Positions 30,001-54,000 of a stretch of 64,000 nucleotides of DNA are shown here, in pieces. This DNA is from Styela clava. Taxonomy: Eukaryota. The stretch covers positions 6,572,001 through 6,636,000 of the forward strand of contig NC_135259.1 in NCBI RefSeq assembly GCF_964204865.1. Reading direction: 5' to 3'. Within the stretch, counting starts at the first letter, position 1, and the number at the start of each line of letters is the position of its first letter. The position numbers were made by a program.

Positions 30001-33000
30001 CATTTGGCATAAAAAAAAACTAGGCTCAAATGAAAAAATTGTTGTTTGTCGAGATTTTTGCAAAAAAACACATCAGTTCAATACTTTAATTTTAACTTTC
30101 ATACAAGTTTATACGAATGCATGACCCTACTGAATTTAGTTTAAAATATACCTTCACATTGCTTTATCACTTCGGTCGATGTACAGTTTAAATGAACAGA
30201 GTTTGTAACTTGGGATTGAATTTTCAAATTGTGTCATAGATTCTACTTTTCTTGAACAGTCTGTGGCACAGCTAAAGTACTATCTGTGTTGAGTTTTATC
30301 AGAAATTATGGTACTAATTGATAAATTTCAATTTTCCTCCAAACAGACCAAAACAACATACGGCTATGATGGAACCGAGCTATCAGATTCCTACTGGGGC
30401 AAAGAGCCATCAGAGCTCACGTTGGGAGATAACATGATTATAAGAGCTCATGAAACTGTGAAAAGAAGTTTTCTGTCGAATTTCGGATACAGGGAAACAA
30501 GATATGAACGTATTCTCTGTTCATGGCCATTCAAGAAATAGATATATTCTACTACTAAAAGAAGAAACCCCAGTCTACAAGTTTTTGCGAATTTTTTATA
30601 CGGAAAAAAAACTCTTAAATTAATATATTTAAATTGTGGTCAATTGAAAATACTTTCTTAAAATTGGTTAGTCGTTTTGACACCGCCCTTTTCGATAAGC
30701 ACATTGCGTTCTTGATATTTGCGCATATTGCTCTTTTGATTAGAAAACTGTATGCACGATAAAATACCAGATATATAGAATACAAAGTAATTGGAGCTTA
30801 TACTTTAGTGTTACCTCCGTATGACAATTTCTCAGAATAAATACGACTGGGTGTAGGACCATTGGACTCGGAATTACGTTCATGAATTTTGACGTATACA
30901 TTTTGCGTTTTTAATTTTTCTGCTGATAAAAACTCAATAAAAAATACGAAAAATGAATAAATTGTGTGTTACGTTGAAGTTTCAACGTGAACTGGCCATT
31001 GAGTGGAAATATTCCAATTAAGTATATAGAATACTCAAGCTTCGGTGATGTTCATTAATTAAAAAGATTTTATCTTAGGTTACCGCTACTCCAAATAAAA
31101 TATGAAAATGGGCTAGTTGACGAGACAGATGGAATTTGCATATAATTGTTGACAATGAATTTAAACTATATAACACTAAAGAAATGAGTGAAGACAGCGA
31201 TAGTCAATGAGATGTATCTCTAGTAGTAGCTTTTCAAATTGCATCTTAACATCTTACAAGAGACCTGCGCTGTTTTGTGTATCTACAGTGTTATTCTGAA
31301 ATCATCATACATATCGATTGCAATGTTTCAGAGGAAATCACGAGGTACGCAGAAACAGACGCAAATTCCTGCGTCATATTGTTTTGTTTAGCACGGGGAA
31401 ATAAACGTATCACGCTTAAGGGCGTAACGCTTAATCGGCATGCGTGCGTATATTGAACTGTTATTTGTAAATTAGCGAACTTAATTGCCTACCTTTTAAT
31501 TTCCTAATGAAAATCCCATTGATCCCACTGCACATGATTCAAACTTCAAATTTCAGGGTTGACCGGAGCATAGTACTAGTTTTTTCGAAATGTGTAGAGA
31601 TAACTTGGATAGAACATAACAGTCCAAACGTAATAAAAAATTCGACGAGTCTTGCACGTTGATAATACAATCCAGAGTTCTGCCATATCCGATTATAACC
31701 ATAGTATAATTACTCGGTATTAATTTGCAGTAAACAATAAAAAACTGATCAAATTATAAAAATTTTGTTAGAATACAATTGTAAATTTATTCGCATACTT
31801 AAATAACTTGAAACGTATATTCTTAGGGTAACGAATGCAAGCCACAACTTGCCCGCATCTGGGGCAAGCCTGTCCGCCCGGCAAAGACTACAAAATGAAA
31901 ATAAATAACGGACACAACGGTTTAACACAAATGGGAAAATATCGATTCATAAATTGCAATTCCTGATTGTTCACCTCGTATCCCAAGTGTATTTTTTCAC
32001 AGAACAATTGTTTTTCTTTTGCATTATTCCAATGGTTTCCATCTGTTCATCGCTCAGCCGTTGATAACTGAGCTTGATGTGGCTCATTGTCGCTTGGTAT
32101 TTCTCTGCCTATTATAGGCTGCAAACACATTTTCGTATTTATTCGTAGTCAAAAAAACAAATTTAGCAAGTTAGGTTTGATATGTACATATTGGAAATAT
32201 GTAAACCAGGGGTCGGCAACCTACGACCCGCGGGCCGGAGCAATATAATCCGGCCCGCGACGCTTCGCTGAGTTATAGTAACAAAACAGCTGTTTTTACG
32301 ATTATAGTCTTTACGTAACAGAATTTATTGTGAGACACGTGTATAGACTAATTTATCTAACAAGTAAATAATTCACAATTACTCGTTTAATGATCCTATA
32401 ATTTAATTATAATTAGACAAATGGCAATAAAACGCAGAAAAGCTGATGTTACGTGCAAATGGTTTAATGGCGCAGAAAATATTCAATCTTCGCACGCTGC
32501 TTAAAATTTAACTTCTGGCCTGTGTGGAAACATGTGATTCATCGGCGATCCGTTCGGTTTTTAACTTTCTATAAATACGTGCGGCCCGCCAATGATTCGC
32601 AACCTTTAATTTTGGCCCATAATTATGGCGCATGACATATATTTGGCTTAAAGTTTGAGCTATATTAGGCGATATTCGGAATATAGAGTATGACATTTAA
32701 AAAATAACCTGGTGAGAGTACATATATTTGGCTTAAAGTTTGAGCTATATTAGGCGATATTCGGAATATAGAGTATGACATTCAAAATCGAACCTGGTGC
32801 TCCTCTTCCAATTGCGAGGGCTTTCGCAGTAAACATACAAAAGGAGCAAATGCGATATTTAATATTGCAACAATATACATTAACCAAGTAAACCCAATAA
32901 GGCGTATTACTGTGCCAGCTACAACGGGACCTGTAAAACGAGATAGTTATCAGTTTCTCTGGTTTGCTTTGCCTATGATTCAAATAATTAGATTGCTAAG

Positions 33001-51000: not shown

Positions 51001-54000
51001 ATAAAATATATGCACTTTTGAAATGTAAGCTATTTGTAAGCTAACGAAAGTAGGGTTGGACAAGATTCTGTAGAGTTTAATTCCAACATTTGTATACTTT
51101 AGTTGAATACAGCGTTAAATCTTATTGTAAAAATTTTCCGAAATAATTTTGAAAAAAGTGTTTAAATCAAAGCACAGCTTGAAAAAGGGCAAATTAGTCT
51201 TTAGTTGTTCAGCATGTTCATCTCCAGAAAGATACTACATCCAATTACATTAACCGAATTCTTATTTCTGAGCATCTTTCTGGTATTGAATGATAATTTC
51301 AACAAAACACATATCGTGTTGATTTCCTATTGTTTGCTTCGTACAATTCGTAATAGCGATAAAACATTCAAAACGAAAAAAAAAATCAATACATCAAACA
51401 CCGAGGCAAATATATCTAGTAATAATGTCGCGGTGCTCCTGAAGTATGCGCACCAAGATGTCGCAATAGAATTAAATTTTTTTTATGAACGTCAATTGTA
51501 GATTCAATTTTCAAGCATTTTTTAGAAAGCATAAAATTACATAAACCGCACAACAGACGTAATTTCTGGACTTCATAACAAACAAGACTGGGAAATTTAA
51601 CTGTATTCGGTAGCATGTGAAAAATTATTGTATTCGTTAGAATAGTGGTATCATTTTTTATTTGATGACTTCAACGCCTAAATCTACAAGAGTCGCACTG
51701 ATTATCATTTCGGTTATTTGTTTAGTTGGGGTACTCGTTTATTTAGTGGAATTGGATGAATGAATTTGTGTGAAATTTCACTTAGTCCTTCAATTCGGGA
51801 AATCCATAGGTCTAATTTTGTTATAATTGTACACAAGCCAAAGTCAATATGTGTAATGCGTTAAATAAATTAACACGTGGCAATAATCAGCTATTACCTG
51901 ACCAGAATTCGAAAGCTGTAATTGCCTTGAACTTAACTGAAGTGATCCTATGATAAATGAAGCAGCAGCGAGCACCAGAAATGGTGTTTCTTTTCCTGCC
52001 AGTTCGTAAGTGACGCTACCGAAACTTGGGCCGACTGAAAAAATAAAGTAATTCAATATCACATATGCGTGCTACAGTTGGGTAAACATTACACAAATAA
52101 GTTCGTTTATTTTTTTGCAAAAAATACGTTTATCCTATTTTCATACTACAAATAAATACGAAATTACTTAGAACCCCCATTGCCAGGCCTCCTAGTGCGA
52201 TTCCCATCATTTTTCCTCTTTCTTCGTCATCTGGAAATCTGCTTGCAAGCATTGCCAGTCCAGCTGTTGAGGCACACGCTGATCCAATGCCTTGTAATGC
52301 ACGAGCAAAAAATAGAACGGGATACGTCTTTCCGAAAGCAAAAACTATAGAATGAAATTTTTCACAGTTATTCATTTAAAATTGAACAAATAGTCTGCAA
52401 ACTCTTTTAACTAGAATGTGACTTACTTAGCGAAGATACTACCAAAACTATGTATCCTGAGAACATCGGTACGTCGTAACCAAATCGGTCAGTCAGAGGG
52501 CCAACCGCAATATTTGCTATTGCTTGAATAAACGGTTTCGAGGCAAGAAGGAATGCGAGAAATAGATTTTCGGCTGCTAAGAACTGCTTGTTACGACTTT
52601 CCAGACATTCGCTTCCTGTACCGTTTCTAGAAACTGCAAATACATAAGTTGTGTGAATAGTCATAGTCACAGCTTCCATGAACAATGTACAGGGTTATAA
52701 TTGAATAGATTGTTAAATAATTCGAGTGGATCTTGGCATGGTGCCACTAGCGTCCAAGCCAACTTAAGATAATGATCAATTCGACAACAAATCAGATTAT
52801 GTTTGCTAGTGGATTTAAATCGTAGGATTTTAAAGGTCTTTTTGTGCAAGTACTGATTTGAGATGAGAATGTAACTAACAAATAATAAAATAATAAATAA
52901 AATGTTCTTTAAGCAATTTACAAATATAGGGCCCATTTACCATGAGTTGTCTCTGTTGTTTGTCCCTCCGTGGTTTGTTTTTCTAAAGAACGAGTACTTA
53001 CTTCATGTATACCGGTTAAGGAGGAGAATTCTTTAGCTTCCTCATGGAAGAAATATTCGGGCAATATTGGAACTGAAAAATAATATTTAATAATAATGAA
53101 AAATATTCAGCAAAATGACTCAATGACTTCAATGACTGTAGGAAATTGTAATTCCCAGTGGCATCAGATTATACATTATGTAGAATGAAATATACAATAA
53201 TACACGGCATTGTCAATGTTGGAACTTTACACAATTATACCCGACGAGGCGTAATATTTTTCACCGTAGTGCTAAAAGACTTTATATTGCTTAACAACGA
53301 AATCTAATTGCAATATAGAGAAAAGAAAACTTATTAAATGCCATTAAATCGGGAGTTAGACGGCTAAATTTGAATTCACTTGATTCCAAATATGTAGTTT
53401 AAATTTAATACTCACCTACACAAGTCAGAAGCATGTTATCCACCATCAAAGTCGCGTAAACTATAAATACTGCCAGGCGATTGGAGTGTCGAAATTTGTC
53501 AAATCCTGCCTTAAATCGTGATTCACTCGCTTCCATATTTTAGTTTAAATGGTAAAAGCTTCATATCTAAAATGTAAATATTGTGACAGCTATTACATGT
53601 ATACATAATTTGTGTTGGTAAAAATATATTTTATACTAACTATACACTAAACCACAAATAGACCAAGCGACATGAAGGCAATTTTAAATAGCATTTCTAA
53701 ATGGAGCTATAGTAAAGTTATGCATATACAGAGTTTTAAAATCTATTGTCTCGCATATTCTTTATTTTTCGGAGGGCACCTTACTCTCCTACTAAAGAAT
53801 GCCTAAAAATGAAAGGTAATTTCAAACGATTAGACATCACTTATTGATTTATTACACTTCTGTAGATTGAAACCTTGCACTTGTCTGAATAGGCCCTGCA
53901 CTGACGTTTAATCACACTAACTTGCATTAGTTACATAATTGTTAAGCGAAATAATTGCAGCTTTAAACACAATGTTAATATGAATTCTGAATTGAAGTTC

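What the first reader, a model, noticed from the sequence alone, without database searches (positions are those of the whole stretch)
32047..53536. Tandem array of three vesicular monoamine transporter paralogs in birth-and-death
Seen: three head-to-tail minus-strand copies with matching exon boundaries where retained: C intact, A one base from intact, B decayed. A and C differ substantially in protein, so the duplication is not recent. Known: VMAT is normally a low-copy gene (two in vertebrates, one in fly and worm). Inference: a lineage-specific expansion suggests non-neuronal cargo, such as catechol/DOPA-derived or other cationic metabolites loaded into blood-cell or tunic-cell vacuoles. 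An acidic dileucine-type sorting tail is retained (DDEKQAII in C, EEEHQPII in A).
Basis: partly seen in the sequence, partly recalled or inferred. Interest (0 to 1): 0.72.

Follow-up and report, generated by a model that had tools for sequence, protein, structure and literature searches.

The report
Sea squirt VMAT triplet, one intact
Three copies of the vesicular monoamine transporter gene lie head to tail in the sea squirt Styela clava, but only one is intact, so this looks like ordinary gene duplication and decay rather than a new transport system.

Summary
The window is Styela clava DNA, and 32047-53536 (minus strand) carries three SLC18A1/A2-type (VMAT) gene copies.

Copy C (53536..48602, 10 exons, 491 codons) is intact. 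It equals the public record "synaptic vesicular amine transporter-like [Styela clava]". It keeps the tested charged pocket residues, and its model matches solved VMAT1/VMAT2 structures.

Copy A (38805..32047) has the same exon plan. It is 65% identical to C in protein, with dN/dS 0.17 and dS about 1.4. Its exon 8 carries a scrambled, one-base-short stretch exactly at the essential TM11 aspartate.

Copy B keeps 5 of 10 exons, with no start codon, stops, frameshifts and three lost pocket residues.

On the trees A and C are sisters inside a tunicate VMAT clade. No other S. clava VMAT appeared among the listed hits of three protein searches.

Birth-and-death is therefore supported. The idea of unusual non-neuronal cargo has no support here. 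Two VMAT genes from an ascidian-lineage duplication were already reported in Ciona.

Most likely C is the working proton/monoamine antiporter, A a recently disabled paralog and B a wreck. Interest is low to moderate.

The parts
48602..53536 (-). Copy C: intact VMAT gene, 10 exons, 491 codons plus stop. Exons: 53536..53416, 53072..52941, 52633..52427, 52344..52168, 52034..51898, 50952..50793, 50421..50274, 49509..49343, 49112..48976, 48691..48602
   Evidence: Exon table with GT-AG at all 9 introns. All 10 exon translations are exact substrings, in order, of public protein P0001. PDB exon hits to VMAT2/VMAT1.
32047..38805 (-). Copy A: paralog with the same exon plan, disabled in exon 8. Exons: 38805..38679, 38220..38092, 37476..37267, 35617..35441, 35302..35166, 34395..34236, 33959..33812, 33218..33053, 32930..32794, 32118..32047
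   Evidence: 1463 nt, frame lost after exon 8. Exons 1-7 and the start of exon 8 match public protein P0002 with 3 differences in the 363 residues compared. dN/dS 0.17 against C.
33053..33090 (-). Lesion in A exon 8: one base missing and about 9-10 scrambled bases at the codons for the conserved TM11 motif (AIAD in C). The aspartate codon aligns with TAA, or reads Lys if the gap is placed in the T run
   Evidence: DNA alignments of the three copies; translation.
45889..45973 (-). Copy B exon 1 remnant: no in-frame ATG, with a stop just upstream
   Evidence: E 1e-12 to C, 3e-11 to A; HMM i-E 1.9e-6.
44727..44903 (-). Copy B exon 4 remnant, 177 nt: in-frame TAA, with R189-equivalent to P and S196-equivalent to F
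44471..44607 (-). Copy B exon 5 remnant, 137 nt, open frame
42236..42384 (-). Copy B exon 7 remnant, 149 nt: a 1-nt insertion, and CAA changed to TAA in the ancestral frame
   Evidence: alignment.
41851..42027 (-). Copy B exon 8 remnant, 177 nt: a 10-nt insertion with a stop, D399-equivalent to G and D426-equivalent to N
   Evidence: alignment.

Best explanation
This is a tandem array of three SLC18A1/A2-type vesicular monoamine transporter genes in Styela clava. Old duplications inside the stolidobranch/Styela lineage made it, and it is now collapsing to one gene.

Copy C is the working gene. It should be a 12-helix major-facilitator antiporter that exchanges lumenal protons for cytosolic monoamines (serotonin, dopamine, histamine) and so loads secretory vesicles. 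A C-terminal acidic II motif would sort it.

Copy A was kept by selection for most of its history. In this haplotype a small complex lesion broke the frame and removed the TM11 aspartate.

Copy B is a long-dead remnant.

Shown here: gene structures, lesions, relatedness, residue conservation and the fold. Inferred: transport activity, substrates, sorting, and that C alone carries the function.
For: Identity of C:
- C equals the annotated S. clava protein P0001.
- Exon-by-exon PDB searches hit VMAT2/VMAT1 better than VAChT. Exon 4: 8e-22 and 1.5e-18 against 5e-14. Exon 8: 6e-16 and 1e-18 against 2e-9. Exon 6: 1e-11 against 1.5e-3.
- The AlphaFold model of P0001 (pLDDT 79.3, pTM 0.78) matches human VMAT2 and VMAT1. 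Ranks 1-37 of the 50 listed are all VMAT1/2 chains, with target-normalised TM 0.82-0.92 and 41-43% identity. VAChT first appears at rank 38, with 31-32% identity.
- C keeps D33, N34, K138, Q142, R189, Q192, S196, S200, E312, W318, Y341, D399, D426 and the C117/C324 pair. Residue roles are taken from passages of PMC10959523.

History of the array:
- In the trees the tunicate clade has 100/100 support and Styela A+C 100/99 and 99/97.
- A against C: dN 0.25, dS 1.45.
- Three-way over 213-214 codons: dS 1.06-1.88 and pairwise dN/dS 0.11-0.18.
- Lesions of A and B.
- No fourth copy is present in the window.
- Only P0001 and P0002 are S. clava among the 120 rows listed by each of three searches.
Against: - No expression or transport data could be obtained.
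- A looks healthy apart from the lesion. It departs from highly conserved columns at 5 of the 75 it covers. C departs at 10 of 103, and by my count of the positions listed 6 of those fall in the same 75.
- A's exons 9 and 10 remain open in the proper frame, and exon 9 has pN 0.22 against pS 0.54.
- So A may be alive in other haplotypes, or the missing base could be an assembly error.
- C itself has L at the F135 gate position and T at F334. These sites are F in all five other species of the table, so its gating or pharmacology may differ.
- The protein searches scored only the 7999-8000 candidates that share the most words and listed 120 each. A further S. clava VMAT is therefore unlikely but not excluded.
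Confidence: 0.78

Rival explanations
1. One reading: the expansion exists because extra copies load non-neuronal, unusual cargo (DOPA- or catechol-derived or other cationic metabolites) into blood-cell or tunic-cell vacuoles.
For: - Three copies were each kept under purifying selection for a long time (pairwise dN/dS 0.11-0.18).
- A carries changes at pocket residues: N34Y, Q142E and S200T.
- Both Styela copies changed the gate positions F135 and F334.
- Styela plicata test cells store histamine with heparin in granules (passage of PMC9505265), so a non-neuronal amine store exists in the genus.
Against: - Only C is intact, and it has the canonical monoamine/proton residue set.
- A and B are broken at essential residues.
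- Histamine is an ordinary VMAT substrate; solved VMAT1 and VMAT2 complexes with histamine are listed.
- No paper in the library links VMAT to tunicate blood or tunic cells. The search for 'Styela clava' with 'vesicular monoamine transporter' gave 0 papers. 'vesicular monoamine transporter' with 'ascidian' gave 10, of which by title and abstract only PMC3414799 concerns ascidian VMAT genes.
Confidence: 0.08
2. Two working genes: A is still functional in the population, and the exon 8 defect is an assembly error or a segregating null allele. S. clava would then have a conserved VMAT (C) and a divergent one (A) with divided expression, as reported for the two Ciona genes.
For: - dN/dS is 0.17.
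- All 9 A introns are GT-AG and their phases are kept.
- Exons 9 and 10 are open in frame.
- A departs from conserved columns about as rarely as C.
- A one-base gain in the T run would restore the frame.
- Ciona has two VMAT genes. One is expressed in the peripheral TPH domain and the other gave no signal (PMC3414799).
Against: - The defect is not a clean one-base slip. The 9-10 bases around it match C far less well than the rest of the exon.
- Every placement of the gap removes the near-invariant TM11 aspartate, giving a stop or Lys.
- The only public A protein, P0002, is a 376-aa model that ends 13 residues into exon 8. It comes from UniRef/nr only.
- A has more unique changes than C against all 5 outgroups (41:19, 36:24, 32:19, 30:21, 33:18). 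Two of the 5 tests reach p below 0.05, and the tests are not independent.
Confidence: 0.2
3. Assembly artefact: the copies are haplotypes or a collapsed or expanded repeat, not real paralogs.
For: None found.
Against: - The copies differ by 25-35% in protein, and synonymous sites are near saturation.
- Self-blastn finds similarity only in exons and across the short intron 4, at 69-80% identity.
- Intron sizes differ. Intron 3 is 82 bp in C and 1649 bp in A (coordinates).
Confidence: 0.01

Closest known systems
Vertebrate VMAT2 / VMAT1 (SLC18A2 / SLC18A1)
   Same: C has the 12-helix MFS fold (TM 0.82-0.92 to solved VMAT1/2 chains, 41-43% identity). It keeps D33, K138, R189, E312, D399, D426, W318, Y341, the lumenal cysteine pair and an acidic C-terminal II/IL motif.
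   Different: - The first lumenal loop is shorter and modelled with low confidence (pLDDT under 50 for residues 61-93).
- C has L at F135, T at F334 and G at N388.
- The tunicate clade sits on a long branch.
- Activity is untested.
The two Ciona VMAT genes (Razy-Krajka et al. 2012, PMC3414799)
   Same: This is an ascidian-lineage duplication of VMAT. One Ciona copy is expressed in the peripheral TPH domain and the other gave no signal (passages).
   Different: - The Styela copies are each other's sisters and do not pair with the Ciona proteins, so the Styela duplications appear independent.
- Only one named protein per Ciona species was in my tree. Two unnamed representatives (P0327, P0355) join the Ciona group, and their origin is unknown.
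- Styela had three copies, two of them now broken.
- The paper's tree and gene identifiers may be in supplements that I could not see.
VAChT (SLC18A3)
   Same: Same SLC18 fold and many shared motifs.
   Different: VAChT scores lower in every exon search that gave hits. In the fold search it has 31-32% identity against 41-43%.

Membership tests
SLC18 vesicular amine transporters, VMAT subtype (SLC18A1/A2) | 12-helix major-facilitator fold like the solved VMAT structures | tested here: met
   Tested for C through its identical public record P0001. Model pLDDT 79.3, pTM 0.78. Ranks 1-37 of the 50 listed fold hits are human VMAT2/VMAT1, with target-normalised TM 0.82-0.92.
SLC18 vesicular amine transporters, VMAT subtype (SLC18A1/A2) | Closer in sequence to VMAT1/2 than to VAChT or other MFS proteins, and placed inside the VMAT clade | tested here: met
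   Exon-wise PDB searches. Trees with named VMATs from protostomes to vertebrates. No VAChT or SLC18B1 row was in the trees, so the outer boundary of the clade was not tested there.
SLC18 vesicular amine transporters, VMAT subtype (SLC18A1/A2) | Charged pocket and proton-coupling residues D33, K138, R189, E312, D399, D426 | tested here: met
   C has all six. Numbering comes from the PDB alignments. Roles come from PMC10959523 passages.
SLC18 VMAT subtype, applied to copy A | The same six residues and an open reading frame | tested here: not met
   The frame is lost in exon 8. The D426 codon aligns with TAA, or reads Lys. A also has N34Y and Q142E.
SLC18 VMAT subtype, applied to copy B | The same six residues and an open reading frame | tested here: not met
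   R189P, D399G and D426N. Stops in exons 4, 7 and 8, indels of +1 and +10 nt, no ATG, and 5 of 10 exons absent.
SLC18 vesicular amine transporters, VMAT subtype (SLC18A1/A2) | Hydrophobic gate residues F135, W318, F334 | tested here: not met
   W318 is kept. F135 is L in C and A. F334 is T in C and A in copy A. All five other species in the table have F at both sites. The F334 position follows from ungapped extension of the alignment and from alignment A2. The exon 7 PDB search gave no hit.
SLC18 vesicular amine transporters, VMAT subtype (SLC18A1/A2) | Lumenal-loop cysteine pair (C117-C324) and a glycosylated first lumenal loop | tested here: met
   Both cysteines are present in C and A. N-x-T sites lie in the loop: NGT in C and NYT in A. 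The importance of the disulfide comes from a PMC10959523 passage. Glycosylation itself is not testable here.
SLC18 vesicular amine transporters, VMAT subtype (SLC18A1/A2) | C-terminal acidic dileucine-type sorting motif | tested here: met
   EKQAII in C and EHQPII in A across the exon 9/10 junction. The same pattern appears in Clavelina, Ciona, rat and Glandiceps. The sorting role is recalled from the literature and comes from no call.
SLC18 vesicular amine transporters, VMAT subtype (SLC18A1/A2) | Proton-driven monoamine uptake, sensitive to reserpine and tetrabenazine | not testable with these tools
   Needs expression and uptake assays.

The most novel reading that the evidence does not exclude
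The Styela lineage kept three VMAT paralogs under selection for a long time. Copy A is still alive in the population as a transporter with a rewired pocket: N34Y, Q142E, S200T, and the TM11 Asp moved one position with Lys in its place. On this reading it loads a cargo other than the classical monoamines, or histamine into mast-cell-like test cells or haemocytes, and the haplotype seen here carries a null allele or an assembly slip.
Probability: 0.1. Interest if true: 0.55.

Novelty: new member of a known kind. Interest (0 to 1): 0.25.

Why it matters
It matters modestly.
- It identifies C as the gene to use as the VMAT marker of amine-storing cells in Styela clava.
- It flags A as a probable young pseudogene, or a polymorphic one, and B as an old one.
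- It suggests that VMAT was duplicated in Styela independently of the duplication already reported in Ciona.
- It does not open a new mechanism.

Tried and rejected
1. A fourth, very decayed copy between C and B (exon 3-like 47680..47570, exon 1-like near 48400). The best hit, 22.3 bits, lies within the range of control blocks elsewhere in the window (up to 25.0 bits). The HMM scan finds nothing there. Rejected.

2. Lost B exons 2, 3, 6, 9 and 10. They were not found by permissive tblastn (E up to 20) or by the HMM scan.

3. Order of the duplications. Of 221 shared columns, 21 group A with B, 21 group B with C and 34 group A with C. Derived states are 6, 0 and 5. pS is lowest for A-B, at 0.57 against 0.62 and 0.69. 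This is weak support for A+B, so the order stays unresolved.

4. One search had two B exons out of register by one codon. Its numbers are discarded, and one search replaces them.

5. Transposon domains that might explain B's losses. I gave Pfam 72 of the 101 ORFs of 55 aa or more in 31900-53700. The 29 I dropped hold or overlap VMAT exons. The only hit was the weak GIY-YIG match in A's intron 3.

6. Neighbouring genes. Of 97 ORFs given, only the 1986-aa retrotransposon ORF matched Pfam.

8. The PDB search with C exon 7 gave no hit at E up to 0.1.

9. Paper searches gave nothing on VMAT in tunicates (listings only).

Searches of window sequence were exon by exon. Whole-protein steps used the public records P0001 and P0002.

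11. Tunicate genome or metagenome contigs could not be searched.
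Full report
**What is there**

The window has no N and is AT-rich (GC 0.31-0.44). Stop-to-stop ORFs on the minus strand between 32 and 54 kb hold pieces that look like a major-facilitator transporter. Of 18 such pieces given to Pfam, 6 matched MFS_1 at E up to 0.01, and 2 of them lay above the curated cut-off.

C's exon 4 piece hits 20 distinct PDB sequences. VMAT2 scores 8e-22 to 6e-19, VMAT1 1.5e-18, VAChT 5e-14 to 1.3e-13, and a bacterial efflux pump about 1e-3. 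Exon 8 gives VMAT1 1e-18, VMAT2 6e-16 and VAChT 2e-9.

A tblastn of the nine C pieces against the window shows three sets, in order and all on the minus strand. A profile-HMM scan of every ORF of 12 aa or more in the window finds 9 C exons, 9 A exons, 5 B exons and nothing else below i-E 3.6. The profile includes the public C and A proteins, so only the B result and the negative result are independent.

**Gene models**

I set the exon borders from the printed sequence and checked them by coordinate.

C has 10 exons, 1476 nt and GT-AG at all 9 introns.

A has 10 exons with the same phases. Exons 4-9 have the lengths of C (177, 137, 160, 148, 137), except exon 8 at 166 against 167 nt, so the frame is lost after exon 8. 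Read in the proper frame, A's exons 9 and 10 are still open.

A search with C exon 4 alone found 301 proteins with E up to 0.001 among 362 candidates, and 120 were listed. It named the organism. P0001, "synaptic vesicular amine transporter-like [Styela clava]", is 491 aa and 100% identical. P0002, same name and species, is 376 aa and 84% identical.

All ten C exon translations are exact substrings of P0001, in order. My model of C is therefore the public one.

P0002 is a truncated model of A. It covers exons 1-7 and 13 residues of exon 8, with 3 differences in the 363 residues compared. It therefore comes from another assembly or haplotype.

Window sequence was searched exon by exon, and whole-protein steps used the stored public records P0001 and P0002.

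**Copy B**

- Exon 1 has no in-frame ATG.
- Exon 4 (177 nt) has a TAA.
- Exon 5 (137 nt) is open.
- Exon 7 has a 1-nt insertion and a CAA changed to TAA.
- Exon 8 has a 10-nt insertion with a stop.
- Exons 2, 3, 6, 9 and 10 were not found by permissive tblastn or by the HMM scan.

A suspected fourth remnant between C and B scored 22.3 bits. Control blocks elsewhere reach 25.0 bits, so I reject it.

**Age and selection**

A against C over 473 aligned codons, counted exon by exon and summed: 64.7% amino-acid identity, pN 0.21, pS 0.64, dN 0.25, dS 1.45 and ratio 0.17.

Over the 213-214 codons that all three copies share, dS is 1.33 (A-C), 1.06 (A-B) and 1.88 (B-C). The pairwise ratios are 0.11-0.18 (one search was out of register and is discarded). 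Synonymous sites are near saturation, so these numbers are rough. They still show old duplications and long purifying selection on all three copies.

Self-blastn finds similarity only in exons and across the short intron 4. That excludes a recent duplication or a haplotype artefact. The branching order of the three copies is unresolved.

**Relatives**

The search with P0001 found 1341 proteins with E up to 1e-20 among 7999 scored candidates, and 120 were listed. The best are P0002 (66%), Clavelina (50%), Ciona intestinalis (48%) and C. savignyi (47%). After them come VMATs of many phyla at 38-46%.

The search with P0002 found 505 proteins with E up to 1e-30, and 120 were listed. After P0001 (65%) most rows are 37-44% identical, and a few shorter alignments reach 46-48%. 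No A-type orthologue is therefore in that database.

In each of the three lists only P0001 and P0002 are S. clava.

In a 26-row tree the tunicate proteins form a clade (100/100), and Styela A and C are sisters (100/99). The A branch is 0.81 and the C branch 0.28.

I added six unnamed representatives from the exhaustive search. All six fall inside the tunicate clade, and A+C remain sisters (99/97). Two join the Ciona group and two long-branched ones sit beside the Styela pair.

A has more unique changes than C against all five outgroups. Two of the 5 tests reach p below 0.05.

**Residues**

Human VMAT2 numbering was transferred from the PDB alignments. Residue roles come from passages of PMC10959523.

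C keeps D33, N34, K138, Q142, N146, R189, Q192, S196, S200, N305, E312, W318, Y341, D399, D426 and the C117/C324 pair. It has L at F135, T at F334 and G at N388. G at N388 is shared by the named tunicates.

A has N34Y, Q142E, S200T, L135 and A334. At the 3' end of its exon 8, MAFFT places the missing base right after the Ile codon of the conserved TM11 motif. The aspartate codon then aligns with TAA. The next 9-10 bases match C poorly, although the rest of the exon aligns well. If the gap is placed in the T run instead, the frame reads through with Lys at the aspartate position. Either way the TM11 aspartate is gone, and that column is at least 90% conserved in alignment A2. The local scramble looks like one complex mutation rather than a read error. 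That is an inference.

Elsewhere A is not degenerate. It departs from highly conserved columns at 5 of the 75 it covers. C departs at 10 of 103, and by my count of the listed positions 6 of those lie in the same 75.

B has R189P, S196F, D399G and D426N.

**Fold**

The AlphaFold model of P0001, built with a 30-row alignment, has pLDDT 79.3 and pTM 0.78. Confidence is low in the first lumenal loop and in the tail. Its best PDB matches are human VMAT2 and VMAT1, with E about 1e-23 to 1e-20, target-normalised TM 0.82-0.92 and 41-43% identity. They rank ahead of VAChT at 31-32% identity.

**Literature**

- 'Styela clava' with 'vesicular monoamine transporter': 0 papers.
- 'VMAT' with 'Ciona' and 'ascidian': 3 papers.
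- 'vesicular monoamine transporter' with 'ascidian': 10 papers. By title and abstract only PMC3414799 concerns ascidian VMAT genes.

[quoted passage not shown] Its phylogeny may be in supplements that I could not see.

A passage of PMC9505265 reports histamine and heparin in the granules of Styela plicata test cells. That is a possible non-neuronal site for an ordinary VMAT.

**Verdict**

Birth-and-death of a lineage-specific tandem array is supported. The inference of unusual cargo is not.

The best reading is one working VMAT (C, already annotated), one recently disabled paralog (A) and one wreck (B). Function, substrates and expression are inferred from family knowledge and were not shown.

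Still unchecked: expression, other individuals, other stolidobranch genomes, and the rest of the S. clava genome.

Noticed in passing
window 9601..16814 (+): A full-length BEL/Pao-type LTR retrotransposon. Its two 611-bp LTRs (9601..10211 and 16204..16814) are 99.8% identical. One open 1986-aa gag-pol frame (10219..16179) carries Pao peptidase, RT, integrase and DUF5641 domains. It looks like a very young insertion.
   Followed up: partly
window 35749..36663 (+), inside intron 3 of copy A: Antisense ORF pieces with a weak GIY-YIG nuclease match (E 0.0069, below the Pfam cut-off). This may be the tail of a Penelope-like retroelement. Intron 3 is 1649 bp in A and 82 bp in C.
   Followed up: partly
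window 49730..49823 (C intron 7) and 26462..26846: Two stretches that match their own reverse complement (93.6% over 94 bp and 82.7% over 392 columns). They are hairpin or MITE-like palindromes.
   Followed up: no
window 32635..32714 and 32720..32799 (A intron 9): An 80-bp tandem duplication, 95% identical.
   Followed up: no
window 56059..56321 vs 19963..20517; 19646..19739 vs 4575..4668; 58511..58666 vs 25252..25398: Dispersed repeats shared between the flanks of the array (71-89% identity). Two of the three pairs are inverted and the third is direct. They are presumably transposon fragments.
   Followed up: no
window 17859..18428 (+): An open 189-aa frame with no Pfam match, just downstream of the retrotransposon.
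   Followed up: no
copy A exons 2, 3 and 5 against public protein P0002: Three amino-acid differences (P/L, V/E, D/G) in the 363 residues compared, between the window's A and the public model. C is identical to its public record. The two public proteins may come from different assemblies.
   Followed up: partly
proteins P0327, P0355, P0330, P0395, P0370, P0396 (unnamed representatives): All six fall inside the tunicate VMAT clade. P0327 and P0355 join the Ciona group and might be the second Ciona gene or another phlebobranch. P0330 and P0395 sit beside the Styela pair on long branches. Their origin is unknown.
   Followed up: partly
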